Source: a virus
DNA: 14,632 nucleotides
Reading direction: 5' to 3' (one strand)
UHGV virus genome: UHGV-0270538
Part shown: positions 691 through 14,632 of the stretch, in pieces
Layout of the letters: each line of letters opens with the position of its first letter
Numbering within the stretch: position 1 is the stretch's first letter
The notes under the pieces: generated by a model
Database searches by the model: none
Told to the model about the DNA's origin: nothing
What the model saw: only the letters and a program-made list of their open reading frames with translations
Position numbers and translations under genes: made by a program

Positions 691-713
691 GGAAGAGCAG
701 GAGAGCAAAACAG

Positions 714-1809: not shown

Positions 1810-2387
1810 GCGCAGAACTCATGCGACTGCTGAGCAACATCATCCGCACCGGGATCATCTCTGAAGTTGATGAGAAGTCCTGGCGCGTGCGCGTTCGCAG
1901 CGGCGAACTGGAAACAGGCTGGTTGCGCTGGAACACCACGCGCGCGGGAGCCTTCAATGTGTGGCTGCCGCCATCACCAGGCGAACAGGTGGTAATTGTC
2001 TGCATTGGCGGCAACCCGGAAACCGCCATGATAATTGGCAGCCTGTGGAGTGATGCCAGTCCGGCCCCCGGCAAAAGCCTGAAAGAAATCGTGGTCAGCG
2101 CGCCGGATGGCGCGGTGTTCCGCTACGACGCAGACGCTGGCGCACTGAGCGCCAGCGGCATGAAAACAGCCACCCTGCAGGCATCCGTCAGCGTGACACT
2201 GGATACGCCCGTCGTGGAATGCACAAACCTTCTGAGAACAGCGACGCTTGACGTCACAAAAGGGGGAAAGATGAGCGGCAATATCACGCACAGCGGCGGC
2301 AATTTCACCTCAAACGGTATCACAGTGCATACGCATAAACACGGTGGCGTTAAAGGTGGCAGCGATTCGACAGGAGGCCCGCAGTGA
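1806..2387 (+). CDS. V: baseplate spike/hub protein V (P2 gpV-like)
   Basis: 193 aa; motifs IRTGII, GEQVVIVCIGGNPE, VECTNLL, TKGGKMSGNITHSGG, VHTHKH match recalled gpV; GGAGG 8 nt upstream of GTG 1806; GTGA overlap with S stop. Confidence 0.9.
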   Translation: MSAELMRLLSNIIRTGIISEVDEKSWRVRVRSGELETGWLRWNTTRAGAFNVWLPPSPGEQVVIVCIGGNPETAMIIGSLWSDASPAPGKSLKEIVVSAPDGAVFRYDADAGALSASGMKTATLQASVSVTLDTPVVECTNLLRTATLDVTKGGKMSGNITHSGGNFTSNGITVHTHKHGGVKGGSDSTGGPQ

Positions 2388-2734
2388 CAACCCGCTACAC
2401 AGGAATGAATCCGGACGGGACGGGAAACCTGAACGATACGGAGCACCTGAAACAGTCAGTCAGGGACATCCTGACCACCCCGCTGGCCAGCCGGGTTATG
2501 CGACGGGAATATGGCAGCCTTGTACCTGATTTGATTGACGAACCCATGAATAACACCACGCGTCTGCAATGCATGAGTGCTGCCGTGATTGCGCTGACAC
2601 GATGGGAACCCCGCATTGCCCTGGACGCCATCGACGTTGTCTGGAAGGCAGGAGGCCGCGCCGGGGTGACGCTGTCGGGCACTGTCATGCAGACCATGCA
2701 GAATGTTGAGTTAACCATCACGCTGAGGGAGTAA
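2384..2734 (+). CDS. W: baseplate wedge protein W (gp25-like, P2 gpW-like)
   Basis: 116 aa; MTTRYTGMN, RVMRREYGSL and WEPRI resemble gpW; CAGGAGG SD 6 nt upstream; GTGA overlap with V stop. Confidence 0.9.
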   Translation: MTTRYTGMNPDGTGNLNDTEHLKQSVRDILTTPLASRVMRREYGSLVPDLIDEPMNNTTRLQCMSAAVIALTRWEPRIALDAIDVVWKAGGRAGVTLSGTVMQTMQNVELTITLRE

Positions 2735-2737
2735 ATC

Positions 2738-3634
2738 ATGCCTGCTGTTGACCTTTCCCAGTTACCGGAACCCGCCATCATCGCGGAGCCTGATTTTGAG
2801 GCAATTCTGGCTGACACAAAGGCCATGATGATTGCGTCCTATCCTGCCGAACAGCGTGAAGCCGTCTCCGCCGCGCTGGAGCTGGAATCGGAACCCCTGA
2901 ACGTTATCGCTCAAACCATGTCTTTTCGTGAAATGCTGTTACGCCAGCGGGTTAACGAGGGCGCACGCGCCTGCATGTTAAGCCACGGTTCAGGGACAAA
3001 TCTGGACAACCTCGCGGGCAATATGAACACAAAGCGCCTGGTTATCACTCCGGCAACGGATACCACCGACGCGGTGATGGAGAGCGACACCTCGCTGAGA
3101 TTGCGGGCGCAGCGGGCGTATGACGGCCTGAGTGTTGCTGGCCCGTCAGGTGCATACGAGTATTTTGCCCGCAGCGCCAGCGGTCTGGTGCGCGATGCGC
3201 GGGCTATCAGTCCGTCTCCGGCCTGTGTGACGGTTTCCATCCTGTCCACTGAAGGCGACGGCACAGCAACGGAGGCGTTGCTTAATACCGTTCGCGCCGT
3301 TCTGAATGCAGAGGATACCCGCCCGGTGGCCGACCGCCTTACTGTACAGAGCGCCAGAATCGTGACATGGCGGCTGAATGCAAAACTGTACTTTTACCCC
3401 GGCCCGGAATCCGAACCTATTCTGGCCGCGGCGGAATCGTCATTCAGGAAGTGGCTGGCTGAACAGGGGCTTATCGGTCAGGACGTGGCGTTGTCCGCCA
3501 TTGCTGCCGCACTTCATGTGCACGGCGTGCAACGCGTGGAGATAATCGAACCCACACAGAATATGGCCATCAGCGACATACAGGCGGCGCGCTGTGAGTC
3601 ATTTACCATCAGCGAAGGTGGGCGCAATGAGTAA
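2738..3634 (+). CDS. J: baseplate assembly protein J (P2 gpJ-like)
   Basis: 298 aa; LSQLPEP, ESEPL, GLSVAGPSGAYEYF, SPSPACVT, RPVADRLTVQSA, YPGPESEPI and LHVHGVQRVE closely parallel recalled gpJ; GAGGGAG SD before ATG 2738. Confidence 0.9.
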   Translation: MPAVDLSQLPEPAIIAEPDFEAILADTKAMMIASYPAEQREAVSAALELESEPLNVIAQTMSFREMLLRQRVNEGARACMLSHGSGTNLDNLAGNMNTKRLVITPATDTTDAVMESDTSLRLRAQRAYDGLSVAGPSGAYEYFARSASGLVRDARAISPSPACVTVSILSTEGDGTATEALLNTVRAVLNAEDTRPVADRLTVQSARIVTWRLNAKLYFYPGPESEPILAAAESSFRKWLAEQGLIGQDVALSAIAAALHVHGVQRVEIIEPTQNMAISDIQAARCESFTISEGGRNE

Positions 3635-4235
3635 TTCACTGTTACCGCCATCAGCCAGCAGTTTCATGCGTTGTGCCGAAGCCGTCGGAACACGCATTAC
3701 AGACATTCCGGTAGACCTCAATACGCTGTGGTCGCCGGATACCTGCCCGGTGCATCTGCTGCCTTATCTCGCCTGGGCGTTTTCCGTTGACCGCTGGGAT
3801 CGCAACTGGCCGGAAGAGACAAAGCGACAGGTAATTCGTGATGCATGGCTGATACACCGACACAAAGGGACCATCAGCGCACTGCGAAGAGCCGTGGAGC
3901 CTCTCGGCTACCTGATTGAAGTAAAGGAGTGGTGGCAACTCAACGAGGAGCCAGGAACATTTCGCATTGTTGTCGGAGTACTTGATCAGGGCATCACCGA
4001 TGAAATGTATCAGGAACTTGAGCGCCTTGTTGCGGATGCAAAACCAGTAAGTCGCCATCTGACGGGGCTGGCGATCAGCCTGAGTGTGAACGGAAAGATT
4101 TTCGTTGGTACGGGATGCTATCACGGCGATGCCCTGACGGTTTATCCCTACACCCCGGAGTCCATTATTGTCGAAGGGGATTATTTCCCTGCCCCGGCCA
4201 TTCATTTAATTGATAATCTAAGAGTAAACGCATGA
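3627..4235 (+). CDS. I: baseplate protein I (P2 gpI-like)
   Basis: ORF track starts at 3594, but homology to gpI begins at MSNSLLPP (ATG 3627) with GAAGGTGG SD 5 nt upstream; start overlaps J stop. Motifs LWSPDTCP, LAWAFSVDRWD, HKGTI, VEPLGY, ADAKPVSRHL. Confidence 0.88.
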   Translation: MSNSLLPPSASSFMRCAEAVGTRITDIPVDLNTLWSPDTCPVHLLPYLAWAFSVDRWDRNWPEETKRQVIRDAWLIHRHKGTISALRRAVEPLGYLIEVKEWWQLNEEPGTFRIVVGVLDQGITDEMYQELERLVADAKPVSRHLTGLAISLSVNGKIFVGTGCYHGDALTVYPYTPESIIVEGDYFPAPAIHLIDNLRVNA

Positions 4236-5839
4236 CAGTGAAATACTACGCCATTCTGACTAATCAGGGCGCAGCACGACTGGCTAACGCGACGATGCTC
4301 GGCAGTAAGCTGAATCTGACGCAAATGGCCGTTGGTGATGCAAATGGTGTGTTACCAACACCAGACCCTGCACAAACAAAACTGATTAACCAGAAACGCA
4401 TTGCACCGCTGAATCTTCTGAGTGTTGACCCTAACAATCAGAGCCAGATTATTGCGGAGCAAATCATCCCTGAAAACGAGGGAGGATTCTGGATCCGTGA
4501 GATTGGTCTTTATGATGATGAAGGTGTACTCATTGCGGTGGCAAACTGCCCGGAAACGTACAAACCGCAGTTGCAGGAAGGCAGTGGACGCACCCAGACT
4601 ATCCGCATGATTCTGGTTGTCACGAACACCGAAGCCATCACGCTGAAAATCGACCCGTCTGTGGTTCTGGCAACCCGCAAATATGTGGATGATAAAATCT
4701 CAGAGCACGAACAGTCACGACGTCACCCGGACGCCTCGCTGACCGCAAAAGGTTTTACTCAGTTAAGCAGTGCAATTAACAGTGAATCAGAAACACTGGC
4801 CGCAACACCGAAAGCAGTTAAGGCTGCATATGACCTGGCTGACGGGAAATATACCGCCCAGAACGCCACCACAACACAAAAAGGGATTGTTCAGCTCAGT
4901 AGCGCCACGAACAGCACGTCTGAAACGCTGGCAGCGACACCAAAAGCTGTTAAGGCGGTAATGGATGAAACGAGCAAGAAAGCACCATTAAACAGCCCGG
5001 CACTGACCGGAACGCCAACAACACCAACAGCGCCACAGGGGACTAATAGTACCCAGATCGCAAGCACGGCTTTCGTTATGGCCGCGATTGCCGCACTTGT
5101 AGATTCGTCACCTGATGCACTGAACACGCTGAACGAACTGGCTGCGGCGCTGGGCAATGACCCGAATTTTGCGACCACCATGACTAACGCGCTTGCGGGT
5201 AAGCAACCGAAGGATGCCACCCTGACGGCGCTGGCGGAGCTTGCTACATCAGCAGATAAACTCCCATATTTTACAGGAGCAGATCGTGCCGCGTTAACCG
5301 CGTTGACAAGTGTTGGACGTGCCATTCTTGGTAAAACCAGCACTCAGGGAGTTCTTGATTACCTTGGTTTGGGAGAAGGCTCTGTATTACCCGTTGGTGT
5401 GCCTGTTCCGTGGCCTTCAGCCACACTGCCAACAGGCTGGCTGAAATGCAACGGGGCGGCATTTTCTGCTGAAGAATACCCGGAACTGGCAAAGGCTTAC
5501 CCGACAAATATATTGCCTGATTTACGTGGTGAATTTATTCGTGGCTGGGATGACGGGCGCGGAGTGGACAGTAGCCGGACGTTGTTGTCGTGGCAAAAAG
5601 GCTCTTATCTGGTTCAGGAAGCCAATATATCACCCGACAGCGTGGTGCAGTTTTCGGTAAACGACATTGCCCTGCTGGGATGGGATAAAACTGAAACCAA
5701 TTCAGATATTCTCAGAGCGAAAAGTATACCTACAGAATATATCTGGAACCCAGTTCCAGTGGGAGCCTGGGGGATTCAGTATCTGGGTTACGCAAGGCCA
5801 CGTAACATTGCATTTAACTACATCGTAAGGGCTGCATGA
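4232..5839 (+). CDS. H: tail fibre protein H, constant N-terminal part fused to the currently expressed variable C-terminal cassette
   Basis: 535 aa; ATGA overlap with I stop; N-terminal two thirds strongly resemble P2 gpH, including the repeated QLSSA-NS-SETLAATPKAVK motif. After the crossover site (5352-5377) the C-terminus carries a tail-collar-type signature (GWLKCNGAAFS ... LPDLRGEFIRGWD). Confidence 0.9.
   Translation: MTVKYYAILTNQGAARLANATMLGSKLNLTQMAVGDANGVLPTPDPAQTKLINQKRIAPLNLLSVDPNNQSQIIAEQIIPENEGGFWIREIGLYDDEGVLIAVANCPETYKPQLQEGSGRTQTIRMILVVTNTEAITLKIDPSVVLATRKYVDDKISEHEQSRRHPDASLTAKGFTQLSSAINSESETLAATPKAVKAAYDLADGKYTAQNATTTQKGIVQLSSATNSTSETLAATPKAVKAVMDETSKKAPLNSPALTGTPTTPTAPQGTNSTQIASTAFVMAAIAALVDSSPDALNTLNELAAALGNDPNFATTMTNALAGKQPKDATLTALAELATSADKLPYFTGADRAALTALTSVGRAILGKTSTQGVLDYLGLGEGSVLPVGVPVPWPSATLPTGWLKCNGAAFSAEEYPELAKAYPTNILPDLRGEFIRGWDDGRGVDSSRTLLSWQKGSYLVQEANISPDSVVQFSVNDIALLGWDKTETNSDILRAKSIPTEYIWNPVPVGAWGIQYLGYARPRNIAFNYIVRAA
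5352..5377. repeat. invertase crossover site (gix/hix-like), left; inside H at the constant/variable junction
   Basis: ttcttgattaccttggtttgggagaa; resembles recalled hixL/gix (TTCTTGAAAACC-AA-GGTTTTTGATAA). Its distal 14 bp (5364-5377) form a perfect inverted repeat with 7303-7316. Confidence 0.65.
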
Positions 5840-6456
5840 TGAGCAAGAAAATCATGACTACAGCGGTGCTGAATGAATCGCGGCTGGCAACAGTTGCAGG
5901 AGAGGTTGTTGTCCACAGCTACGATAATAAGACGCGGGAATACCTTTGCACGTCAACCGAATATCTGGCTGTGGGCGTTGGCCTTCCTGCACATTCATGC
6001 ACTGATGCCCCCGGGGAAAGGCGGGCTGGTTATGTGATTTGCCGCACTGCTGACCTGACCGCGTGGGAGTATGTGCCGGACCATCGGGGTGAGACAGTCT
6101 ATAACACAGAAACCCGTGAGGCAGCAGAAATTACCACTCCGGGTGATTACCCTGAAAACACAACCACTGTCGCACCGTTAACGCCATACGATAAATGGGA
6201 TGGTGAGGAATGGGTGACCGATACAGATGCGCAACATCGTGCCGCTGTAGAAGCGGCAGAAACACAACGCCAGTCGCTGATTGATACTGCAATGGCTTCC
6301 ATTAGTCTGATTCAGCTGAAATTACAGGCCGGGCGGAAACTGACGCAGGCAGAAACAACCCGGCTTAACGCTGTGCTGGATTACATTGACGCGGTGACGG
6401 CAACAGATACCAGTACCGCGCCGGATATCAATTGGCCTGCTCCCCCGGAGGCGTAG
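5836..6456 (+). CDS. G: tail fibre assembly chaperone G (Tfa, Mu U-like), cognate to the expressed H cassette
   Basis: 206 aa; ATGA overlap with H stop; C-terminal Tfa signature (TSTAPDINWPAPPEA); lies inside the invertible segment. Confidence 0.85.
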   Translation: MMSKKIMTTAVLNESRLATVAGEVVVHSYDNKTREYLCTSTEYLAVGVGLPAHSCTDAPGERRAGYVICRTADLTAWEYVPDHRGETVYNTETREAAEITTPGDYPENTTTVAPLTPYDKWDGEEWVTDTDAQHRAAVEAAETQRQSLIDTAMASISLIQLKLQAGRKLTQAETTRLNAVLDYIDAVTATDTSTAPDINWPAPPEA

Positions 6457-6844
6457 GCCAGACGGGATTTGATGTATCAACGCGCATCAGCAAGACCCGG
6501 TATTTTTTCCATTCAGATAACGCGGCGGTTTCTTCTGCCGTCGCGATTTCCGCATCAAAAGCATCCTGTCTCCAGACTATTTCCTTATCAGCCATAGAAC
6601 GCAATACCGTTCTTTTCTGTTCAGCCTGAATAATCTGTTGTTCAGCGGAGAGTGGCGGGATATCAATCCACGCAGGATTACCATTTTTATCAGCCCCCAG
6701 CGTTTTGCCTTCTGGCGCTACGCCTGTGTAAATTGCCATTGTTTCATCATCAACATCAGCGCCATTTTCAGGCCATGAACCGGCGCTGATATATACCTCT
6801 TTTAGTGCTTTCGGATAGAAAGAGCCTTTATAAAATTTATTCAT
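6428..6844 (-). CDS. alternative tail fibre assembly chaperone G' (Tfa), silent in this orientation
   Basis: Minus-strand ORF 6428..6874; preferred start is ATG at 6844 (MNKFYKG...), 2 nt after the H' stop with a GGGG SD-like stretch upstream. C-terminal Tfa signature (WKKYRVLLMRVDTSNPVWPTPP). Converges on G with a 29-bp 3' overlap. Confidence 0.8.
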   Translation of the reverse strand: MNKFYKGSFYPKALKEVYISAGSWPENGADVDDETMAIYTGVAPEGKTLGADKNGNPAWIDIPPLSAEQQIIQAEQKRTVLRSMADKEIVWRQDAFDAEIATAEETAALSEWKKYRVLLMRVDTSNPVWPTPPGEQAN

Positions 6845-6846
6845 TC

Positions 6847-7316
6847 TTAATACCCCAGCGCGATAAAACAACAATCTTCGGTGCCCTCTCCGGATGGCGA
6901 CCAGTTCTGAATACTGATGTGCGTTCTGCTGGCAATACGCACATTCATCGCGGCATTGTAGCCAGATGTTCCACGGTTTCCGGTCGCAAACAAGCCTGCA
7001 TAGGGAAAAGCAAATGGTAAGGCATATCCAGCATCAGCTCCCTTTTGTGTTGCCACCGTTCCCCACTGCAACATAAGTTTCACCGGGTTTCCTGTCGTCG
7101 CAATGCATGGAATGTAGATGTAGCCATTACCTGACATCATTGACCTGAAGCTGTCTAAATCCAGTAACTTCGAGGCATTATCTGCTCCAACATCTCGTGT
7201 TGCAGCGGTCCCTAACTGGAGCGCATTTCGGAAGGCTGATACATCAGAAATATCAGATCCATTAGCCGATTTCTGCATAGCTCTGGAGGCTCTATTTATC
7301 GTTTCTCCCAAACCAA
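6847..7316 (-). CDS. alternative tail fibre C-terminal cassette H' (promoterless, no own start; expressed only after inversion)
   Basis: Minus-strand open frame running from the crossover site (7303-7328) to TAA at 6847-6849. It encodes ...GLGE at the site, the same junction peptide as H (LGLGE at 5366-5377). The ORF-track Met at 7356 lies upstream of the crossover site and is probably not used. Confidence 0.7.
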
Positions 7317-7328
7317 CGTTTAAGAAAA
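7303..7328. repeat. invertase crossover site (gix/hix-like), right; inverted copy 55 bp upstream of the invertase gene
   Basis: Plus strand ttctcccaaaccaacgtttaagaaaa; reverse complement ttttcttaaacg-tt-ggtttgggagaa shares the core and a 12-bp half-site exactly with the left site. Position just upstream of the invertase gene matches Mu gixR/gin. Confidence 0.65.
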
Positions 7329-7383
7329 TGCAGAGATTACGGCTAACTGGCATCATCCCCGGTTTTTATTCAGGGGATCCATC

Positions 7384-7983
7384 ATGCTTATTGGCTATGT
7401 CCGCGTATCAACAAATGACCAGAATACAGAATTGCAGCGTAACGCGCTGGAGTGCGCAGGATGTGAACTGATTTTTGAAGATAAAATCAGCGGAACGAAA
7501 TCAGCCAGACCGGGATTGAAAAAACTGCTCAGAACGCTATCAGAAGGAGATACGCTGGTTGTCTGGAAGCTGGACAGACTGGGCAGAAGTATGAAACACC
7601 TGATCACGCTTATTGAGGAATTGCGGGAAAAAGGTGTTAATTTCCGTAGTCTGACGGACAGCATTGACACATCAACACCCATGGGGCGTTTCTTTTTTCA
7701 CGTCATGGGAGCTTTAGCCGAAATGGAACGTGAATTAATTGTAGAGCGTACACTGGCCGGGCTGGCAGCAGCACGCGCACAAGGACGCATTGGCGGACGT
7801 CGCCCGAAGTTGACAAAAGAACAACACGAGCAAATAGCGAGGCTGATTAAAAACGGTCATGACAGGAAACAACTGGCGATCATTTACGACATCGGCATAT
7901 CGACGATTTATCGTTATCACCCTGTAGGCGATATACAGGCTGAAGAAACAACCAGGCAGACTCAGGAAAATGAAAACCGCTAA
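7384..7983 (+). CDS. site-specific DNA invertase, serine recombinase of the Gin/Pin/Cin/Hin family
   Basis: 199 aa; N-terminus MLIGYVRVSTNDQNT with the catalytic Ser in VRVST; conserved VVWKLDRLGRSMKHL, SLTDSIDTS, MGRFFFHVMGALAEMERELI and a C-terminal HTH region (ISTIYRY). AGGGGA SD 6 nt before the ATG. Confidence 0.95.
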   Translation: MLIGYVRVSTNDQNTELQRNALECAGCELIFEDKISGTKSARPGLKKLLRTLSEGDTLVVWKLDRLGRSMKHLITLIEELREKGVNFRSLTDSIDTSTPMGRFFFHVMGALAEMERELIVERTLAGLAAARAQGRIGGRRPKLTKEQHEQIARLIKNGHDRKQLAIIYDIGISTIYRYHPVGDIQAEETTRQTQENENR

Positions 7984-8009: not shown

Positions 8010-8504
8010 TCAAAACAGCCCTTTAACGGAGCTGGCCGCGCTGTTAAGGGATGATGTGACCTTATCTTTGAAGCCGGACAGCATATCACTGAACGATGAG
8101 GATTGCAGGCGCTCCCGCAAATCCTCATCACAGCGTTCAAGAGTCAGTGAAAATTCTATCTTTTTCGCCTTACCGTAGCGATCAAACTCGGAGCGGGTCG
8201 TATTCGTTCCGGTCAGGACATACATGCCGTAAATCTGCCCGACACCATCAATCAGAGGCCAGGGGCGTCCTGTATATGCCTGCGTGGTCAGCAACGAAAG
8301 CGACACTTCGCCACCTGTAATTTCAGGATAAAGCACGCCGGAAAGCACGATGCGATCATCACCTGCGCCGATATACTGCCAGCTTGCTGAACGGTTAACG
8401 CGTTCATTTTTCACATGCCGCCAGCTTTTGTTTTGCTGTAACTGCTGATGCGGCAATGTGCGCAGCTCAAAAACAAACATGCCGTAGATCATCATCATGG
8501 CCAT
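8010..8504 (-). CDS. U: tail protein U (sheath terminator, P2 gpU-like)
   Basis: 164 aa; MFVFELRTLPHQ, YPEITGGEVSL, WPLIDGVG and FSLTLER resemble gpU. GGAG lies only 2 nt before the first ATG, so the true start may be the third Met (8498). Confidence 0.85.
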   Translation of the reverse strand: MAMMMIYGMFVFELRTLPHQQLQQNKSWRHVKNERVNRSASWQYIGAGDDRIVLSGVLYPEITGGEVSLSLLTTQAYTGRPWPLIDGVGQIYGMYVLTGTNTTRSEFDRYGKAKKIEFSLTLERCDEDLRERLQSSSFSDMLSGFKDKVTSSLNSAASSVKGLF

Positions 8505-8510
8505 GACTCC

Positions 8511-11354
8511 TCAATCTTTATCGTAAAAACTGCCACGTCCGGCACGGTCGCGTCGTTCCAATTCTGCCCTGACCATTTCACCGACCAGTTTCGCCAGTTC
8601 GCGGGGATTCTGCGTAACAACGTTATGCAGATGAACATGAATTTCACCGCCAAATCCGGAGACAACAGGCTCCCGGTTACGGGAAGTTGCAGGAACTGAT
8701 GCCACTGGCGATCGTATGGCCTCCGCCACCGGGCGGGAGCTGGCCGCAACAACAGGGACCAGCGCCGGAGGCAGAGGAGTCGGGACCACGGGTGTGATGT
8801 TGATTGCGGAAGCAGGCTTACTGACCTGCGCAATCTTCCGCTCCTGCCACTCCCCACGAACAGCAAGTGCGCGGGGCAGATTCTTAAAGACAATATCGCC
8901 GGGGCCAATGCGTTTTTTCGTCTCATCAACCAGCTTACCTGTGTTATCAGCAATTTTGCTGAGTCTGCGTAGCGTACCGGTATTGCTGTCTGTGAGCGGT
9001 TTGTTGTCTTTGGGTTTATCACCTCCGGTGCCATTGCCATTTTCCACAGGCTTCGGCGGATTGATTTTCGCCAGGTCCCCCTGAAGCAAGGCAACCTTGT
9101 CCTGAAGAATGGCCGCACGCTGTGCGTCTTCGATTTTCTTACGCGCCCTTTCCGCTTCATCCGGAAGGACGCCAAGTTTTTCAAGTATCCACGCCAGCGT
9201 ATCCAGTAGCATTTTTGCAGGCGTCAGAACAAGTTGTAACGCACCGCCAAGAACGTTACCGAATATCTCGCCAGCACTGGTACATTTATCCAGCGTTTCC
9301 TTGCTGGACTCCATCGGTGACAACAGCGATTTAAACCAGTTAAACACCTGGCTGATCCCGCTTCCGATTGCGTCAAAAACAGGACCAAACCGTTCAAAGG
9401 TTTCGCGCAACGGGGTCAGCCTTTCCATAATCCCGCTGAACACCCCGGCAAAAAATGCCTTAATGGGTTCCCAGTATTTCCAGATGAGAACCGCCGCAGC
9501 CACAAACGCAGCAGCAATCAATCCAACCGGACTGAACAGCGCCCCGATAGCGCCTCCCAGCAAAGAAACAGAACCCGTCAGCATTCCCCACAGCGCAGGC
9601 AACACCCGGACGACATTCATTGACCGGGTAAGAATGTCAAAACCAAGACGCAGGGTGGCCAGCTTTCCGTAAAGCACCCCAATAACCAGCGACAACGAGC
9701 CAATCGTTGCAGTCATTGCCAGCAACGCACCGCCTGCTATCAGTAGCTGGCGCGTCAGTACCGGATGGGCCTGCGCCAGCGAGGTGATTTTTTCAAGCAC
9801 CCGCGTGAGCCACTGCGTGACAGAACGCAGCGGACCGTCAACCAGATCACTGATGCGAATACGAAGACCTTCCCATGCGCTGTCGAGATTTTTCAGGTCC
9901 CCATCAAGATTATCGGCCATTACTTTTGCAACGCGATCGGCCTCTCCCCTTGCCCCCTGCAATTCTCTGGTCAGTTTTTGCAGCTCTCCTGAACCAGCCG
10001 CCGCAACAAGCGTCTGTAAACCAACGAACGCCTCTTCTCCGGCGATGTCCTTGAAGAAGGAAATCTGGTCCACCTGTCCGTATTTTTGTGTCGCCTTATA
10101 GAGATCAAGCAGCACATCCTCCATCGGGCGCATTTTGCCTCTGGCGTCAGCAACTGACACCCCCAGCTCTTTCAGTGCATCAGCCGCAGCTTTTGGCGGT
10201 GATGCAAGGCGGGACAGACTTGCGCGCATGGCCGTACCAGCATCGCTTCCGCGAAGACCATTATTGGCAAGCATCCCGGCCATGGCCGCCGCTTCTTCAA
10301 GACTGATACCAAGTTTTGCGGCAACCGGACCGGTATACTTCATGGTTTCGCCCAGCGCGCGTAAATCAGTATTGGTCCGGGTGAATGCTGCTGTCAGCGT
10401 ATCGCCAACCCGGTCCATTTGATCGGCTGTCAGGTTGAACTGTGTGAGGATATTGGAGCCTATATCAGCCGTCTCGCCGAGTTCGACGCCACCTGCCAGC
10501 GCCATATTAAGAACACCGGGCAATGCGGCCTGAATGGCCTGCGGAGTAAAACCAGCCATTGCCAGAAAGCTCTGCCCACTGGCGGCATCACTCGCAGTAA
10601 ACTGTGTTTCAGAACCAAGTTTTAACGCCTGCTCACGCAGCGCCTTAAACTGCGGGCTGTTTTTGTCGATTCGCGTCAGTGCCTGAACGCGGGACATCTC
10701 TTTCCCGAACCCGATCGCAGGCTGCAAAAAACGCCCGGCAGCATAGCCGCCAGCCGCTGCCGCACCAATTGCCAGCGCACCACCTGTTTTCAGTTTTCCC
10801 GCGGTTTCCTGCGCGCGCGAATACCGCTCACGCGCCCGCGTTACACGCGCAAGCGCCTGCCGTTCGCGTTCAAGCTGGTTGTTGTACTGTTCGGTGCGTC
10901 TGATGGCCTGCTGGATGGTGTTATCGCTGCCTGTCAGGGAAATGCCGTGGCGTTTCAGCTCTCCGCCAAGCTCCCGCATTTTCTGAATTTCCCGTGTGCG
11001 CGATTCATTCAGGCGTTCAAGCCGGGTGCTTAACTGCTGCATCAGCTTTTGTTGTTTTTCGCTGAGCACTGTACCCGTGCGTTGTAACTGATTAAGGGCG
11101 TTAAGCTGGCGTCGTGCTTTCACGATACCCGCATCCGCTTTACTGACAGCGTCGCGGGCGCGCTCAAATGATCGCGCCTGACGCTCGAGATTTTTGATCG
11201 CCCCCTGCGTTCGCTGGATGGAGTCACCAAACTGCCCCATCAGGCGGCGGGCGTTTTCGGCAGGCCGGGTCAGCCTGTCAACGGCGCTGAAAGCGACCCG
11301 GATATCAAGAGTCTTCATTGTCTGCATTCCCGCTGCGAAGTGCCGCCCGCTCAC
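8511..11354 (-). CDS. T: tail tape measure protein T (P2 gpT-like)
   Basis: 947 aa, Ala/Gly/Leu-rich with coiled-coil N-terminal region and hydrophobic central segments; sits between E/E' and U. The GTG at 11354 is uncertain; in-frame ATGs at 11327 and 11318 are alternatives. Overlaps the end of E'. Confidence 0.9.
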   Translation of the reverse strand: MSGRHFAAGMQTMKTLDIRVAFSAVDRLTRPAENARRLMGQFGDSIQRTQGAIKNLERQARSFERARDAVSKADAGIVKARRQLNALNQLQRTGTVLSEKQQKLMQQLSTRLERLNESRTREIQKMRELGGELKRHGISLTGSDNTIQQAIRRTEQYNNQLERERQALARVTRARERYSRAQETAGKLKTGGALAIGAAAAGGYAAGRFLQPAIGFGKEMSRVQALTRIDKNSPQFKALREQALKLGSETQFTASDAASGQSFLAMAGFTPQAIQAALPGVLNMALAGGVELGETADIGSNILTQFNLTADQMDRVGDTLTAAFTRTNTDLRALGETMKYTGPVAAKLGISLEEAAAMAGMLANNGLRGSDAGTAMRASLSRLASPPKAAADALKELGVSVADARGKMRPMEDVLLDLYKATQKYGQVDQISFFKDIAGEEAFVGLQTLVAAAGSGELQKLTRELQGARGEADRVAKVMADNLDGDLKNLDSAWEGLRIRISDLVDGPLRSVTQWLTRVLEKITSLAQAHPVLTRQLLIAGGALLAMTATIGSLSLVIGVLYGKLATLRLGFDILTRSMNVVRVLPALWGMLTGSVSLLGGAIGALFSPVGLIAAAFVAAAVLIWKYWEPIKAFFAGVFSGIMERLTPLRETFERFGPVFDAIGSGISQVFNWFKSLLSPMESSKETLDKCTSAGEIFGNVLGGALQLVLTPAKMLLDTLAWILEKLGVLPDEAERARKKIEDAQRAAILQDKVALLQGDLAKINPPKPVENGNGTGGDKPKDNKPLTDSNTGTLRRLSKIADNTGKLVDETKKRIGPGDIVFKNLPRALAVRGEWQERKIAQVSKPASAINITPVVPTPLPPALVPVVAASSRPVAEAIRSPVASVPATSRNREPVVSGFGGEIHVHLHNVVTQNPRELAKLVGEMVRAELERRDRAGRGSFYDKD

Positions 11355-11834
11355 GCCAGCTAACCACTTCGCCGGGCGTCATCATGAAGATTTCGGCGGG
11401 CGACCAGTTAAAAATGGCGGCAATATCCGCCACAAAGTCTTCTATGTGCTCAAAGCACACAACCGTGATCAGGCTTCCGTCGCCTGTTCGCTCTTCCCGC
11501 CAGAGTCCGCACCGCTCAAAAAATTTACGGCAACCACACATAACTGAATAAAATCACGGGATGCCATTTTTTTGATCGTCACTTCATCCAGTCGTGGCGA
11601 GGTCACGCGTGACAGCAGCGTAAACATGGATTCCGCTTTCAGATTCAGCACATCAGACAGCGACAAATCTCGCAGAGATCCAGCCTGCTCAATAGCCCCG
11701 GTGATCTCCACATACGTGATTTTTTCGCCGCCTCGCTCAATTGGTTGGGTAAGTTTTACGCCACGCTCACTGGTTTCTTTCACAGTGTCAGTAACTACCG
11801 TGTTTTCGGTATCGATGTTTTTCGTCTCTTTCAT
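11305..11834 (-). CDS. E': tail assembly chaperone E+E' fusion made by programmed -1 ribosomal frameshift (about 176 aa)
   Basis: The -1 frame is open from 11553 down to TGA at 11305-11307. Slippery heptamer U-UUU-UUG at 11523..11517 on the coding strand, in frame as AAU-UUU-UUG (N-F-L). Same heptamer and gene position as P2 E/E'. Confidence 0.7.
11469..11834 (-). CDS. E: tail assembly chaperone E (P2 gpE-like; lambda G analogue)
   Basis: 121 aa, acidic; AAGGAG SD 8 nt upstream of ATG 11834; lies between FII and T and contains the T-TTT-TTG slippery site. Confidence 0.8.
   Translation of the reverse strand: MKETKNIDTENTVVTDTVKETSERGVKLTQPIERGGEKITYVEITGAIEQAGSLRDLSLSDVLNLKAESMFTLLSRVTSPRLDEVTIKKMASRDFIQLCVVAVNFLSGADSGGKSEQATEA
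11517..11523 (-). other. programmed -1 frameshift slippery heptamer TTTTTTG (E to E')
   Basis: Plus strand caaaaaa at 11517-11523; on the minus strand it reads T-TTT-TTG in the E frame, with an open -1 frame downstream. Confidence 0.75.
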
Positions 11835-11888
11835 CAGGAAACTCCTTTCAGTCAGAGGCGACGCACTGCGCCGCCTGCATATTACTTA

Positions 11889-12401
11889 TCAGCCAAGCCC
11901 GAGCGCGGAACGGATGCGATCGGGCACAATGTCCTTGCCGTCCTTCCGGTAGATGTGGTTCAACAGGTCGATTTCCCACAGCGGGCGATCGTTAACGCTC
12001 AGCTTGTAGTAGGTGTTTTTGACAGCGTAAGTGTGTGATGTGGCTTCGCCCTGTTTGGCCTCCCCCATATCAATTTCCGTCACACGCCCGCGCATCTCGA
12101 TTTCATACAGATCGCTTTCTGCATCGGTGTAGTATTCACCCGCAAAACGCAGCAGCGTGCTGTCAATCGTGCCGCCATATTTAAGGAACAGCGCACGAAC
12201 AGCTCCCCCCATGACAAAGCTCGCATCAAGCGCGGAGTCGTCCAGACCGAGATCAATACTTACCGCACCCATCATGCCACCACCCCGGTAGCTGTCGGTT
12301 TTGCGCGTCAGCTTAGGCAGAGTGACGGACGTCACCTTACCCACTTCGTTTTCACCATCCACAAACAGCGTAAAAAAGCGAAGATGTTTTGGTACAGCCA
12401 T
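11889..12401 (-). CDS. FII: tail tube protein FII (P2 gpFII-like)
   Basis: 170 aa; VTLPKLTRK, YRGGGM, IDLGLDD, RFAG and EIDMGEAKQGE resemble gpFII; GGGAGG SD; start overlaps FI stop by 1 nt (TGATG). Confidence 0.9.
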   Translation of the reverse strand: MAVPKHLRFFTLFVDGENEVGKVTSVTLPKLTRKTDSYRGGGMMGAVSIDLGLDDSALDASFVMGGAVRALFLKYGGTIDSTLLRFAGEYYTDAESDLYEIEMRGRVTEIDMGEAKQGEATSHTYAVKNTYYKLSVNDRPLWEIDLLNHIYRKDGKDIVPDRIRSALGLG

Positions 12402-13585
12402 CAGGCACCTCCCAGCACCGCAAATGCGGGACCAAAGAATTCATCAGTAAACGTCTGGTAAAGCTCCATGTCTTCCAGTGGCGGAACGGGCGTATATTTG
12501 TAGCGAATACGCACACGTCCCTGACGTAAATCCGTGGTGCCGTTATCCACCACGTCATACCAGCACTCCGCGCCAATCAGTTTCCCGGCAGTAACCAGCG
12601 AATCCAGTTTTGCCCTGATGGCACTGATAACATCCTTCACGTTCGCAGGCGTCAGTGGACTGTCGATGGTTTCAAACTGCGCTTCCGCAATTGAATCAGC
12701 CAGCACCTGTGCGGTTCGGGTATACACCTCAAAGATGTAGGCGTTCGTTTCCGGTGTGCGGTTGCCCCAGAAGCGGAACCCGTTACGACGAATAATGGTC
12801 GTGATTTCTTTGTTGTTGAGGCTGTTGGCATCACTGTCTTCGGCCTGTAACGACCAGAACACATGCCTCGACATCCCCAGCACATTTTTAACCGGAACGT
12901 TGGACAGCGATTTGTGCCAGCCCTGCTCATGGTCAATGTACGCACGAAGGCCGCACGCATAAGCAGGCGCGGGGAACGTTTCGTTTTTGCCACTTTTCGG
13001 GTTGTAGGCGATGAAGTCCGGCCATAAGAGCATCACCTCACGTTCGTTGAATTTCTGGCGGTAGGTAATTGCCTCAGCCATCGTGTTACAGTCATGACAT
13101 GAGGCATACACAAACGCGCGCAGTTTACCCGCAATCACGCACAGGGATTTTGTCACCGCCTCCGTGTCCAGCTCCGGCGCGGCCAGAATACGCGGACGGT
13201 ATCCGATGCTTTCATCCTGCTCTGCAACAAGCAGCGCATACATCCCCGTATAGCTGCCGTCAGATTCAGAACCACCGATAACCAGTTGATCCTGCGTCTT
13301 ACCGCCTTCTTCTTTGTGTTCAGCCACGCGAACGACGATCACTTTTGTGCTCACCTGGTCTGCAATAGCCTTAAGCGCACGATAAAGCGTCCCCGTAGTC
13401 CCGCATTTTCCCAGCACGTCATTGACGCGGGTCAGCAGTGTGGGCTTGTTCAGCGGGAACAGCTCCGCGTCCGCATCATCCGCCGTTGCCACGATACCGA
13501 TAACACTGGAATCAACATCATTAATCGCTGTTACCAGGTCGGTACTTTCCGTAACACGGGCACCATGAAAACGAGTTTCACTCAT
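12401..13585 (-). CDS. FI: contractile tail sheath protein FI (P2 gpFI-like)
   Basis: 394 aa; FPLNKP, KLRAFVY, YRQ-F, WPDF, DHEQGWHKSLSNV, IRRNGFRFWGNRT, YTRTAQV and YKYTPVPPLE match recalled gpFI; AAGGGG SD 8 nt before the ATG. Confidence 0.95.
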   Translation of the reverse strand: MSETRFHGARVTESTDLVTAINDVDSSVIGIVATADDADAELFPLNKPTLLTRVNDVLGKCGTTGTLYRALKAIADQVSTKVIVVRVAEHKEEGGKTQDQLVIGGSESDGSYTGMYALLVAEQDESIGYRPRILAAPELDTEAVTKSLCVIAGKLRAFVYASCHDCNTMAEAITYRQKFNEREVMLLWPDFIAYNPKSGKNETFPAPAYACGLRAYIDHEQGWHKSLSNVPVKNVLGMSRHVFWSLQAEDSDANSLNNKEITTIIRRNGFRFWGNRTPETNAYIFEVYTRTAQVLADSIAEAQFETIDSPLTPANVKDVISAIRAKLDSLVTAGKLIGAECWYDVVDNGTTDLRQGRVRIRYKYTPVPPLEDMELYQTFTDEFFGPAFAVLGGA

Positions 13586-13742: not shown

Positions 13743-14632
13743 ATGACCGATACCACCATGCAATTGCTCAGTCAGAGCACAGACCCCGTGAAAATGCCGG
13801 ATTTTGATATTCTCGCGGAGGGGGAAACACTGTCCGGCGTGGCAGAGCGCCTGATGAGCCTGTCACTGACCGACAACCGGGGATTTGACGCGGACCTGCT
13901 CACCATCACGCTGGATGATGCGGATGGTCAGTTGCAGCTACCGCCACGGGGCGCGCGCCTGACGGTTCTCATTGGCTGGAAAGGAGAACCGCTGACAGAA
14001 AAAGGCACTTACATTGTTGATGAAATCGCTCACGAAGGACCGCCGGACAGGCTGACTGTTTCAGCCAGAAGCGCAGATTTTCGGGATGAATTTAACGTTA
14101 AACGTGAGGTGTCCTGGCATGATGTGACCATTGAGCGTGTGGTATCCGCCATCGCTCACCGGTACGGTCTGAAACCGCAAATCAGCGAAATGCTGATGGA
14201 TATTGAAATCGACCACGCCGACCAGACCGAAGAAAGCGACATGTCCTTCCTTACGCGCATGGCGGAAATGCTGGGCGCAATCACTACGGTAAAAAGCAGT
14301 AATCTGTTATTCATCATGCCAGGCGGTGGCGTGAACGCACAGGGTCAGCCGTTGCCATCGTTCGCCATCACACGCAGCAGCGGCGATCGCCATCAGTTTC
14401 GCATTGCTGACCGCGAAGCGTATACGGGGGTACGCGCTTACTGGCTTGATCTTAATTACGGGAAAAAGAAAAAAGTCAGCGTGAAACGCCGCAAACCGCC
14501 AAAACCCAAAAAGGAGAAAAGCAGCAGCCGTGAAGGTGATTATATGGAAGGCGCGGAAGGCAATGTGTTTGTGTTACGCAAGACTTATCAGAACGAGCAG
14601 GCAGCAAGACGCGCAGCGGCGGCAAAGTGGCA
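13743..14632 (+). CDS. D: tail protein D (P2 gpD-like), 5' part; continues beyond the window
   Basis: Open frame from ATG 13743 (GGGAGGG SD 6 nt upstream) to the window end, 296 codons. Motifs SLSLTDNRGF, DDADGQ, RSADFR, SWHD, QTEESD, FLTRMAE, AYTGV, lysine-rich KKKKVSVKRRKPPKPKKEK and EGDYMEGAEGNVF match gpD. Absent from the ORF track only because no stop falls in the window. Confidence 0.9.
   Translation, partial: MTDTTMQLLSQSTDPVKMPDFDILAEGETLSGVAERLMSLSLTDNRGFDADLLTITLDDADGQLQLPPRGARLTVLIGWKGEPLTEKGTYIVDEIAHEGPPDRLTVSARSADFRDEFNVKREVSWHDVTIERVVSAIAHRYGLKPQISEMLMDIEIDHADQTEESDMSFLTRMAEMLGAITTVKSSNLLFIMPGGGVNAQGQPLPSFAITRSSGDRHQFRIADREAYTGVRAYWLDLNYGKKKKVSVKRRKPPKPKKEKSSSREGDYMEGAEGNVFVLRKTYQNEQAARRAAAAKW

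What the first reader, a model, noticed from the sequence alone, without database searches (positions are those of the whole stretch)
11505..11535. P2-type programmed -1 frameshift in the tail chaperone gene
The heptamer T-TTT-TTG lies in the E frame (AAU-UUU-UUG encoding N-F-L), and the -1 frame stays open for another 70 codons to a stop at 11305 overlapping the T start region. This mirrors P2 E/E' and lambda G/GT. The A7 run at 11567-11573 is not the site, because the -1 frame has a stop at 11554-11556.
Basis: partly seen in the sequence, partly recalled or inferred. Interest (0 to 1): 0.35.

Follow-up and report, generated by a model that had tools for sequence, protein, structure and literature searches.

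The report
P2-type tail chaperone −1 frameshift site
This is the well-known programmed −1 ribosomal frameshift that P2-like phages use to make two tail-assembly chaperones (E and E+E') from one start codon, found here in a common E. coli prophage: a real but ordinary feature, except that two slippery heptamers overlap at the site.

Summary
On the minus strand, a 121-aa gene (11834-11469) lies between the tail tube and tape-measure genes and reads AAT TTT TTG at 11525-11517. This puts T_TTT_TTG (11523-11517) in the slippery phase. The −1 frame then runs 70 codons to TGA 11307-11305, overlapping the tape-measure ATG (11318) by 14 nt. The fusion is 176 aa.

- **Family:** the −1 extension matches Pfam Phage_P2_GpE (E 1.9e-12). 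The upstream ORF aligns with P2 gpE (32% identity), placing VNFLS on P2's VGFLS.
- **Conservation:** of 58 distinct related overlaps in IMG/VR, 56 carry an in-phase heptamer, against about 14% expected by chance. T_TTT_TTG is the most common (39).
- **Selection:** substitutions fall mainly on third positions of the −1 frame.
- **No stimulator:** no downstream RNA structure was found, as reported for P2.

One refinement: a second heptamer, A_AAT_TTT (11526-11520), overlaps the first. A sister clade (526 exact matches in complete E. coli genome records, including the active phage ΦSM) has lost T6G but keeps A_AAT_TTT and an intact E' frame. Either heptamer, or both, may therefore operate here.

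Public records annotate E' as a separate GTG-started ORF. Verdict: known mechanism, orthologous instance, low interest.

The parts
11469..11834 (-). E-like tail assembly chaperone gene, zero-frame product of 121 aa. ATG 11834 has a good Shine-Dalgarno sequence (AAGGAG).
   Evidence: ORF. BLASTP against P2 gpE gives 32% identity over 85 aa, E 4e-12. PHROG 103 'tail protein', E 2.9e-35. Pfam PF10109 Phage_TAC_7 scores only 17.2 bits, below its cut-off of 25. Anti-SD duplex -8.2 kcal/mol.
11517..11523 (-).
   Evidence: The same heptamer occupies the homologous position in P2, Wphi, 186, PSP3, SEN5, KSP20, Kp4872-3, Shewanella M16-3, Yersinia 201.16, RSA1, Alfacinha1, phiE12-2, Milagro and an Edwardsiella prophage. 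It occurs in 39 of 58 distinct IMG/VR overlaps. The exact 60-nt context with T6 is found in 729 E. coli records, with T7 in 1 and with T5 in 0.
11520..11526 (-).
   Evidence: It is the only heptamer left in the sister clade at about 86% identity (P88_4B11, 520873, 503458, Citrobacter phage ΦSM), where T6G reads TTTTATG and the 71-codon -1 frame is intact. In the E. coli reporter assays of Sharma et al. 2014, A_AAU_UUU gave 11.4% with a strong stimulator against 0.77% for U_UUU_UUG; both were about 0.1% without a stimulator.
11305..11517 (-). E' extension: 70 codons in the -1 frame plus stop TGA 11307-11305. With E residues 1-106 it gives a 176-aa E+E' fusion.
   Evidence: Pfam PF06528 Phage_P2_GpE, E 1.9e-12, 46.9 bits, cut-off 23. 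PHROG 1756, E 2.1e-38, covers residues 1-68, i.e. from the slip site onward. Substitutions against four relatives fall mainly on third positions of this frame and there are no indels.
11305..11460 (-). The 51-aa ORF that PGAP and the P88 GenBank record annotate as a free-standing protein ('GpE family phage tail protein' / 'tail fiber protein'), starting at GTG 11460. It is most likely not an independent gene.
   Evidence: The anti-SD pairing upstream is weak (-3.5 kcal/mol, 14 nt upstream), against -6.8 to -11.5 for the sheath, tube, E and U starts. Conservation in the -1 frame continues upstream of this GTG.
11567..11573 (-). A7 run inside E (Lys-Lys-Met codons). It is not a shift site.
   Evidence: Its phase is AAA_AAA_A. 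The -1 frame stops at TGA 11556-11554, five codons later.
8511..11318 (-). Tail tape-measure gene (P2 T equivalent). Its ATG 11318 overlaps the E' stop by 14 nt.
   Evidence: PF10145, E 8.7e-57, and TIGR01760, E 5.8e-86. Start as annotated by PGAP.
11889..12401 (-). Tail tube gene (P2 FII equivalent), immediately upstream of E.
   Evidence: PF04985, E 8.9e-46, and TIGR01611.
12401..13585 (-). Tail sheath gene (P2 FI equivalent).
   Evidence: PF04984, PF22671 and PF17482.
8010..8504 (-). gpU-like tail gene downstream of the tape-measure gene.
   Evidence: PF06995 Phage_P2_GpU, E 1.5e-38.

Best explanation
The window carries the tail operon of a P88-like (genus Xuanwuvirus, family Peduoviridae) E. 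coli prophage.

**Proposed mechanism**
- Ribosomes start at ATG 11834 and mostly terminate at TGA 11469, giving the 121-aa chaperone E.
- A small fraction slips one base backwards on the compound slippery sequence A_AAU_UUU_UUG (11526-11517).
- These ribosomes continue in the -1 frame for 70 codons to TGA 11305, giving a 176-aa E+E' fusion that carries the P2 GpE' domain.

**Two possible slip events**
- P2-type: P-site tRNA-Phe moves from UUU to UUU and A-site tRNA-Leu from UUG to UUU. The junction then reads ...VNF-L-ERCG.
- Three bases earlier: tRNA-Asn moves from AAU to AAA and tRNA-Phe from UUU to UUU. The junction then reads ...VNF-F-ERCG.
- Both products are 176 aa and differ only at residue 106.

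**Efficiency and role**
- No RNA stimulator is evident, so the shift is expected to be inefficient and to fix a low ratio of E+E' to E.
- By analogy with lambda G/GT and P2 E/E+E', both proteins would act as chaperones for tape-measure and tail-tube assembly and would be absent from the virion.

**Shown versus inferred**
- Shown: the sequence geometry, the homology of both parts, the conservation of the site and purifying selection on the -1 frame.
- Inferred: that the fusion is actually made, which heptamer is used, the efficiency and the chaperone role.
For: - **Geometry:**
- **Synteny:** tube, E, E', tape measure, U.
- **Homology:** E' matches PF06528, E 1.9e-12. E aligns with P2 gpE, E 4e-12, with the slip codons aligned. 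PHROG 103 and 1756 also match.
- **Heptamer conservation in named phages:** an in-phase heptamer sits at the homologous position in all 21 phage or prophage loci examined.
- **Heptamer conservation in IMG/VR:** 56 of 58 distinct overlaps have one in phase, against 4 and 2 in the other two phases and about 14% expected by chance.
- **Frameshift products in public records:** Wphi, PSP3 and Milagro carry joined CDS features, and the 186 record notes that orf52 is probably produced by a frameshift from orf51.
- **Literature:** P2 shifts at TTTTTTG to make E and E+E', and has no downstream structure (PMC3091744).
- **Selection on the -1 frame:** differences at codon positions 1/2/3 are 2/0/6, 11/9/28, 9/6/27 and 7/4/15 against four relatives, and the extension is 70 codons in all five lineages.
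- **Stability of the T run:** T6 occurs in 729 records, T7 in one record that PGAP flags as frameshifted, and T5 in none.
- **No independent start:** the annotated GTG start of E' has a weak Shine-Dalgarno sequence.
Against: - **No protein-level data:** nothing exists for this phage group. The P88 paper does not mention the gene or a frameshift.
- **Weak motif:** U_UUU_UUG is among the weakest motifs in E. coli reporter assays, at 0.118% unstimulated and 0.77% with a strong pseudoknot.
- **No stimulator found:** fold z-scores range from -1.05 to +1.35, RNAalifold predicts 0 pairs, and I saw no obvious Shine-Dalgarno-like sequence upstream. The efficiency is therefore unexplained.
- **T6G dispensable:** the sister clade lacks it, so that heptamer is not required in this lineage.
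- **A possible start codon exists:** a GTG lies in the E' frame at 11460, so independent initiation cannot be formally excluded from sequence.
Confidence: 0.9

Rival explanations
1. The frameshift is real, but in this lineage the operative heptamer is A_AAU_UUU (11526-11520), or both heptamers are used. T_TTT_TTG alone would then not be the site. The junction would read VNF-F-ER instead of VNF-L-ER.
For: - The sister Xuanwuvirus clade has TTTTATG in place of TTTTTTG, yet keeps GTA AAT TTT and an intact 71-codon -1 frame: 45 of 56 IMG/VR hits and 526 exact 60-nt matches in complete E. coli genome records.
- That clade includes ΦSM, described as an active temperate phage (PMC6456863).
- Sharma et al. 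2014 place H_HH.U_UU.Y motifs among the most efficient in E. coli. They measured A_AAU_UUU at 11.4% against 0.77% for U_UUU_UUG with the IS3 pseudoknot.
- Other relatives use C_CCT_TTC at the same codons, so the site moves easily by one codon.
Against: - Without a stimulator, A_AAU_UUU (0.070%) scored no better than U_UUU_UUG (0.118%) in the same assay, and no stimulator was found here.
- T_TTT_TTG looks ancestral. It is present in the 83%, 75% and 59% relatives that lack A_AAT (L036, L039, Edwardsiella).
- T_TTT_TTG is the site reported for P2.
- The T6 run is essentially invariant in 729 E. coli records.
Confidence: 0.35
2. E' is an independent small gene, translated from GTG 11460 as PGAP and the P88 GenBank record annotate it. 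No recoding takes place.
For: - Public annotation gives a separate 51-aa CDS.
- A GTG is present in the window, the 4B11 clade and Edwardsiella (alignment).
Against: - Anti-SD pairing is weak and badly spaced: -3.5 kcal/mol, 14 nt upstream.
- Conservation in the -1 frame (LW..ER.GDG..ITV) and the PHROG 1756 profile extend upstream of the GTG, right to the slip site.
- Kp4847-1 has GTT GCG at that position, with no start codon.
- 56 of 58 lineages keep an in-phase heptamer in the overlap, which independent initiation would not require.
- P2 is reported to make a fusion.
Confidence: 0.04
3. The -1 product arises from transcriptional slippage: RNA polymerase inserts an extra U in the T6 run, and the ribosome does not slip.
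For: - Inserting one T fuses E and E' in frame. This is seen in the T7 sequence variants IMG/VR L037 and E. coli A36.
- The site is a homopolymer.
Against: - The six T's are short of the eight or nine usually needed for appreciable slippage (general knowledge).
- Relatives use A_AAT_TTT (a T4 run), C_CCT_TTC or G_GGA_AAG at the same position. These fit tandem tRNA slippage and not polymerase stuttering.
- The heptamer is in the ribosomal X_XXY_YYZ phase in 56 of 58 lineages. Transcriptional slippage would not require any particular phase.
Confidence: 0.04
4. The heptamer and the open -1 frame are coincidental or a decaying relic, and only E is made.
For: - The TTTTTTG string is not enriched in the window.
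- Another in-phase T_TTT_TTG occurs by chance inside the tape-measure gene.
Against: - The Pfam domain hit in the -1 frame has E 1.9e-12.
- Substitutions show a third-position bias, and the extension length is constant at 70 codons across lineages of 59-91% identity.
- The arrangement is conserved across Peduoviridae.
Confidence: 0.01

Closest known systems
Bacteriophage P2 genes E and E+E' (programmed -1 frameshift in the FETUD tail operon; Christie et al. 2002, cited in PMC3091744)
   Same: - Same position between the tube (FII) and tape-measure (T) genes.
- Homologous E (32% identity) and E' (PF06528) parts.
- Identical heptamer T_TTT_TTG on the aligned Phe-Leu codons.
- The E' stop overlaps the T start.
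- No downstream RNA structure.
   Different: - E is longer here (121 aa against 91), as is the fusion (176 against 142).
- The linker between the slip site and the conserved E' domain is about 13 residues longer.
- A second heptamer, A_AAT_TTT, overlaps the first here; P2 has GGT before the T run, so it has only one.
- The FI-FII-E-T-U block is inverted relative to gene D and the baseplate genes.
- There is no experimental evidence for this instance.
Lambda G / GT and the conserved tail-chaperone frameshift of dsDNA phages (Levin 1993; Xu, Hendrix and Duda 2004, 2013, 2014, as summarised in PMC5009743)
   Same: - Two overlapping ORFs lie between the major tail protein gene and the tape-measure gene.
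[quoted passage not shown]
- The presumed role is to set a fixed chaperone ratio.
   Different: - No sequence similarity was detected.
- Lambda uses G_GGA_AAG. Among the relatives examined here, only the Mannheimia phage has that motif.
- This is a contractile-tail (myovirus) system, whereas lambda is a siphovirus.
Sister Xuanwuvirus clade (P88_4B11, 520873, 503458, Citrobacter phage ΦSM)
   Same: - E/E' DNA is about 86% identical, and the 70-residue E' extension is 91% identical in protein.
- The geometry is the same and the -1 extension has the same length.
- A_AAT_TTT sits at the same codons.
   Different: T6G is interrupted (TTTTATG), so only A_AAT_TTT remains as a canonical heptamer. The window has both.
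E. coli dnaX and IS3/IS911-type -1 frameshift signals
   Same: Tandem-slippage heptamer in the X_XXY_YYZ phase.
   Different: Those signals combine a highly shift-prone A_AAA_AAG-type motif with an upstream Shine-Dalgarno-like sequence and/or a downstream hairpin or pseudoknot. No downstream structure was detected here, and I saw no obvious Shine-Dalgarno-like sequence upstream.

Membership tests
P2 gpE / gpE+E' tail assembly chaperone pair with programmed -1 frameshift | The gene lies between the tail tube (FII) gene and the tape-measure (T) gene of a contractile-tail operon. | tested here: met
   Tube 11889-12401 (PF04985, TIGR01611), E 11469-11834, tape measure 8511-11318 (PF10145, TIGR01760), sheath upstream and gpU downstream.
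P2 gpE / gpE+E' tail assembly chaperone pair with programmed -1 frameshift | The zero-frame product is homologous to gpE (Pfam PF10109 Phage_TAC_7). | tested here: met
   BLASTP against P2 gpE gives 32% identity over 85 aa, E 4e-12. PHROG 103, E 2.9e-35. The Pfam PF10109 hit is below its gathering score (17.2 against 25 bits), so membership rests on the pairwise and PHROG results.
P2 gpE / gpE+E' tail assembly chaperone pair with programmed -1 frameshift | The -1 frame ORF overlapping the 3' end of E encodes the GpE' domain (Pfam PF06528 Phage_P2_GpE). | tested here: met
   46.9 bits, E 1.9e-12, cut-off 23, profile positions 1-36 of 37. It aligns with the E' of 16 other phages; D31, E50, W54, A58 and R61 are invariant.
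P2 gpE / gpE+E' tail assembly chaperone pair with programmed -1 frameshift | An in-phase slippery heptamer (T_TTT_TTG in P2) lies within the stretch where both frames are open, at the homologous codons. | tested here: met
   T_TTT_TTG at 11523-11517. VNFLS aligns with P2 VGFLS. The site is conserved in 56 of 58 IMG/VR lineages.
P2 gpE / gpE+E' tail assembly chaperone pair with programmed -1 frameshift | E' has no translation start of its own. | tested here: inconclusive
   A GTG exists at 11460 and is used by PGAP. Against it, its Shine-Dalgarno sequence is weak (-3.5 kcal/mol), -1-frame conservation continues upstream of it, and at least one relative has no start codon there.
P2 gpE / gpE+E' tail assembly chaperone pair with programmed -1 frameshift | Two proteins sharing an N-terminus are actually produced, and both are needed for tail assembly. 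| not testable with these tools
   This needs protein expression, mass spectrometry and genetics. The only support is the precedent reported for P2.
Stimulated bacterial -1 frameshift signals (dnaX, IS3, IS911 type) | A downstream hairpin or pseudoknot, or an upstream Shine-Dalgarno-like stimulator. | tested here: not met
   Downstream structure was tested and not found: the 131-nt fold has z -1.05, 70-nt folds of 8 homologues have z between -0.98 and +1.35, and RNAalifold on 8 homologues predicts 0 pairs. For the upstream element, I saw no AGGAGG-like sequence in the 6-17 nt before the site by reading the sequence; no scan was run.
Transcriptional slippage sites | A long homopolymer (typically at least 8-9 A or T) whose reading phase is irrelevant. 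| tested here: not met
   The run is T6 here and T4 in the sister clade. Relatives use non-homopolymer heptamers. The site is phase-locked in 56 of 58 lineages.

The most novel reading that the evidence does not exclude
In the P88-like (Xuanwuvirus) lineage the slip site is a compound A_AAU_UUU_UUG in which both overlapping heptamers work. This would yield two E+E' isoforms (Phe or Leu at residue 106). It would also act as an evolutionary bridge: the sister clade could lose the ancestral P2-type T6G and rely only on the upstream heptamer, a case of a programmed frameshift site moving by one codon without ever losing function.
Probability: 0.35. Interest if true: 0.3.

Novelty: already known. 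Interest (0 to 1): 0.12.

Why it matters
Mainly for annotation.
- This prophage family is present in about a quarter of complete E. coli genomes (1374 of 5426).
- PGAP and the P88 GenBank record annotate E' as a free-standing 51-aa protein ('GpE family phage tail protein', or even 'tail fiber protein') rather than as the C-terminus of a 176-aa recoded product.
- The correct CDS should be join(11834..11517, 11517..11305) on the minus strand, flagged as ribosomal slippage.

Biologically it adds nothing new to the P2 and lambda model. It does offer a natural pair of variants, with and without T6G, each present in hundreds of E. coli genomes. That pair could be used to ask how a motif as weak as U_UUU_UUG sustains an essential frameshift and how slip sites drift.

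Tried and rejected
- **Downstream RNA stimulator:** single-sequence folds of 131 nt and 70 nt, and RNAalifold on eight homologues, gave nothing above shuffled controls and no conserved pairs.
- **Upstream Shine-Dalgarno-like stimulator:** I saw none when reading the sequence.
- **A7 run as an alternative site:** rejected, because the phase is wrong and the -1 frame stops after five codons.
- **Enrichment of the bare motif:** not significant, 4 found against 3.35 expected. The argument therefore rests on phase, position and homology.
- **NCBIfam:** no model matches E, E' or the fusion.
- **PDB sequence search with the fusion:** no meaningful hit; the best was E 0.68.
- **Structure prediction:** not run, because the fusion sequences from other loci cannot be submitted and a single-sequence model would be poor.
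- **Genome-contig scan with the full fusion:** only 3 loci, because the peptide patterns were too specific. The IMG/VR scan with an E' alignment was far more productive.
- **Christie et al. 2002 (PMC135442):** not held in the library. The P2 facts are cited second-hand from PMC3091744.
- **T-run length polymorphism (phase variation or slippage):** only 1 T7 among about 730 E. coli records, in an assembly where PGAP also flags the tape-measure gene as frameshifted, so it is probably an assembly error. The T7 and T8 variants in IMG/VR (L037, L040) are probably errors too.
- **P88 and ΦSM papers:** neither discusses this gene or a frameshift.
Full report
**What is in the sequence**

The minus strand of the window carries a contractile-tail operon:

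| Gene | Coordinates | Evidence |
|---|---|---|
| Sheath | 12401-13585 | PF04984 and related domains |
| Tube | 11889-12401 | PF04985, TIGR01611 |
| E-like ORF, 121 aa | 11469-11834 | see Homology below |
| Tape measure | 8511-11318 | PF10145, TIGR01760 |
| gpU homologue | 8010-8504 | PF06995 |

- Translating the 121-aa ORF codon by codon gives AAT (11525-23), TTT (11522-20) and TTG (11519-17), i.e. N-F-L. T_TTT_TTG therefore occupies 11523-11517 in the X_XXY_YYZ phase.
- The -1 frame is closed upstream by TGA 11556-11554. It then runs open through the heptamer for 70 further sense codons to TGA 11307-11305.
- That stop overlaps the tape-measure ATG at 11318 by 14 nt. The start is taken from the PGAP annotation of an identical E. 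coli prophage.
- The fusion is 106 + 70 = 176 aa.
- The A7 run is at 11567-11573 in phase AAA_AAA_A. A -1 shift there would stop five codons later.

Every coordinate and number in the finding is therefore correct.

**Is it more than chance?**

The bare string is not enriched: TTTTTTG occurs four times in the window against 3.35 expected from shuffles. One of the other copies is also in phase, inside the tape-measure gene. The four in-phase heptamers in the other tail genes (one in sheath, one in tube, two in the tape-measure gene) are followed by only 7-49 open -1 codons that end within their own gene.

The E site is special for three reasons:
- It lies in the 85-nt stretch where both frames are open.
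- The -1 frame extends 54 codons beyond the E stop.
- That extension is a recognisable protein domain.

**Homology**

- The 70-residue extension matches Pfam PF06528 Phage_P2_GpE (46.9 bits, E 1.9e-12, cut-off 23). It also matches PHROG 1756 over residues 1-68, i.e. from the slip site onward.
- The zero-frame protein matches PHROG 103 (E 2.9e-35). It aligns directly with P2 gpE (32% identity over 85 residues, E 4e-12), placing VNFLS on P2's VGFLS, so the Phe-Leu slip codons are aligned.
- Its Pfam PF10109 hit is sub-threshold (17.2 against 25 bits), and NCBIfam has no model for either part.

**Source of the window**

- The region is 98-100% identical to Escherichia phage P88 and 500465-2 (genus Xuanwuvirus, Peduoviridae) and to prophages in E. 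coli chromosomes.
- The E/E' segment is found in 1374 of 5426 complete E. coli genomes.
- PGAP and the P88 GenBank record annotate E' as a separate 51-aa CDS starting at GTG 11460, named 'GpE family phage tail protein' or 'tail fiber protein'. No slippage is annotated.
- By contrast, the Wphi, PSP3 and Milagro records carry joined E+E' CDS features described as -1 frameshift products. The 186 record notes that orf52 is probably produced by a frameshift from orf51.

**Comparative test of the slip site**

I fetched the homologous region from 20 annotated genome records (mostly phages) and 3 genome loci and located the overlap of the two frames in each.

| Heptamer at the homologous position | Found in |
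|---|---|
| T_TTT_TTG | P2, Wphi, 186, PSP3, SEN5, KSP20, Kp4872-3, Shewanella M16-3, Yersinia 201.16, RSA1, Alfacinha1, phiE12-2, Milagro, an Edwardsiella prophage |
| T_TTT_TTT | Zymomonas pZM41 |
| G_GGA_AAG | Mannheimia 1127AP1 |
| C_CCT_TTC | Klebsiella Kp4847-1 |

A scan of IMG/VR with an alignment of 17 E' sequences returned 80 loci with 58 distinct overlaps.
- 56 of the 58 have an in-phase heptamer in the overlap: T_TTT_TTG in 39, C_CCT_TTC in 10, T_TTT_TTA in 4, A_AAT_TTT alone in 2 and T_TTT_TTC in 1.
- In the other two phases, only 4 and 2 overlaps contain such a string. The chance expectation for a mean overlap of 39 codons is about 14%.
- The two exceptions have T7 and T8 runs and other frame breaks, most likely sequence errors.

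**Selection on the -1 frame**

Against four relatives with 59-91% E' protein identity, the extension is always exactly 70 codons. In the E'-only part, differences at codon positions 1/2/3 are 2/0/6, 11/9/28, 9/6/27 and 7/4/15. This is the signature of purifying selection on the -1 frame.

- In the window the sequence is GTA AAT TTT TTG. A second canonical heptamer, A_AAT_TTT (11526-11520), therefore overlaps T_TTT_TTG.
- The sister Xuanwuvirus clade (about 86% identical DNA: P88_4B11, 520873, 503458, Citrobacter phage ΦSM) reads GTA AAT TTT ATG. T6G is destroyed, A_AAT_TTT remains, and the -1 frame is intact at the same length.
- An exact-pattern scan of IMG/VR found 49 T-variant and 45 A-variant loci with the full 71-codon -1 frame.
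- In complete E. coli genome records the exact 60-nt context occurs 729 times for the T6 form and 526 times for the A form.
- ΦSM is described as an active temperate phage (PMC6456863). T6G is therefore dispensable in this lineage, and A_AAT_TTT is presumably what that clade uses.
- More distant relatives carry T6G without A_AAT: L036 GTT AAT TTT TTG, L039 CCC TTT TTT G, Edwardsiella CCT TTT TTG. T6G therefore looks ancestral, and the window's compound site looks like the intermediate state.

Reporter data from Sharma et al. 2014 (PMC4066793, Table S3), as percent -1 frameshifting in E. coli:

| Motif | No stimulator | IS911 stimulators | IS3 pseudoknot |
|---|---|---|---|
| U_UUU_UUG | 0.118 | 0.247 | 0.765 |
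| A_AAU_UUU | 0.070 | 0.355 | 11.4 |

Neither motif is strong on its own, and the upstream one responds far better to stimulation. I therefore treat 11517-11526 as the site and leave open which heptamer dominates. The two routes give products of the same length that differ only at residue 106 (Leu or Phe).

**Stimulators**

- Folding 131 nt from the site gives z = -1.05 against shuffles.
- 70-nt folds of eight homologues give z between -0.98 and +1.35.
- RNAalifold on eight homologues predicts no pairs.
- I saw no Shine-Dalgarno-like sequence in the 6-17 nt upstream when reading the sequence.
- This agrees with the literature statement that P2 and its Burkholderia relatives lack a downstream structure (PMC3091744, citing Xu et al. 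2004).
- The expected outcome is a low-efficiency shift. How a motif as weak as U_UUU_UUG suffices is not explained by anything I found.

**Rivals**

- *Independent initiation at GTG 11460.*
  - The anti-SD pairing there is -3.5 kcal/mol and is 14 nt upstream, against -6.8 to -11.5 for the sheath, tube, E and U starts.
  - Conservation in the -1 frame and the PHROG profile continue upstream to the slip site.
  - Kp4847-1 has no start codon at that position.
  - A conserved in-phase heptamer would be unnecessary under this model.
- *Transcriptional slippage.*
  - The run is only T6, and T4 in the sister clade.
  - Relatives use non-homopolymer heptamers, and the site is phase-locked.
  - In E. 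coli genomes the run length is T6 in 729 records, T7 in one and T5 in none.
  - The single T7 record has both E and the tape-measure gene flagged 'frameshifted' by PGAP, pointing to assembly error.
- *A decaying relic.* This is excluded by the selection data.

**Comparison with known systems and verdict**

- This is the orthologue of the P2 E/E+E' recoding signal. P2 is reported to shift at TTTTTTG to give 91-aa and 142-aa products (PMC3091744).
- That signal is itself the myovirus counterpart of lambda G/GT and of the tail-chaperone frameshift conserved across dsDNA phages (PMC5009743).
- All sequence-testable defining features are met. Production of the fusion and its requirement for assembly cannot be tested here.
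- Differences from P2 are minor: a longer E and linker, the compound heptamer, and an inverted FI-FII-E-T-U block relative to gene D.

The feature is already known in kind, so interest is low. Its practical value is in correcting a widespread annotation, and in the natural T6G-plus and T6G-minus pair as material for studying slip-site drift.

Noticed in passing
window 5361-5377 and 7303-7319 (inverted repeat); 7384-7983 (+); 6847-7356 (-); 6428-6874 (-); 4232-5839 and 5836-6456 (+): This looks like an invertible tail-fibre segment of the Mu G / P1 C / e14 type. A serine recombinase of the resolvase/invertase family (PF00239 + HTH_7) sits beside a 17-nt inverted repeat (ACCTTGGTTTGGGAGAA / TTCTCCCAAACCAACGT). 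One arm lies inside the tail-fibre gene and the other inside an oppositely oriented alternative fibre C-terminus (PF21882), which has its own tail-fibre assembly gene (PF02413). E. coli strain 266917_2 carries more alternative fibre cassettes at this place.
   Followed up: partly
window 8010-13585 (-) versus 166-6456 (+) and about 14052-14632 (+): The FI-FII-E-E'-T-U block lies on the opposite strand to the baseplate and fibre genes (R, S, V, W, J, I, H, G). It is also opposite to gene D, which starts near 14052 on the + strand and runs off the window end. In P2 the order is FI-FII-E-T-U-D on one strand. The 466-bp gap between the sheath start and D would hold divergent late promoters.
   Followed up: partly
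window 10725-10731 and 10794-10800 (-), inside the tape-measure gene: Two more in-phase slippery heptamers (T_TTT_TTG and G_GGA_AAA) occur in the tape-measure gene. They are followed by 26 and 49 open -1 codons that end inside the gene. They are probably chance occurrences, and their conservation was not examined.
   Followed up: no
window about 11474-11486 (-); homologous columns 40-48 of alignment A2: A block GG(A/C)GACGG about 36-45 nt downstream of the slip site is nearly invariant at the nucleotide level across the eight lineages aligned (two Xuanwuvirus clades, an Edwardsiella prophage, two IMG/VR relatives, Kp4847-1, KSP20 and Kp4872-3). It lies where both frames are coding: zero frame ..ETE.., -1 frame ..GDG... 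It forms no predicted structure. Whether the constraint comes from dual coding or from something else is unknown.
   Followed up: partly
L037 and L040 (IMG/VR UViGs); L225 = E. coli A36 NZ_CP028739.1 1598477-1598537: These are variants with T7 or T8 in place of T6. T7 fuses E and E' into a single ORF. In A36, PGAP also flags the tape-measure gene as frameshifted, so these are most likely homopolymer sequencing errors and not natural fused alleles.
   Followed up: yes
L022 = NZ_JBQPOM010000071.1 (Vagococcus sp. WN89Y, 226-kb contig): An assembly labelled as a Gram-positive Vagococcus carries a 93%-identical copy of this enterobacterial prophage E/E' region. This suggests contamination or mislabelling of that assembly.
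   Followed up: no
window 11305-11318 (-): The tape-measure ATG has a weak Shine-Dalgarno sequence (-4.3 kcal/mol) and overlaps the E' stop by 14 nt. Tape-measure translation may therefore depend partly on upstream translation, i.e. on coupling.
   Followed up: no
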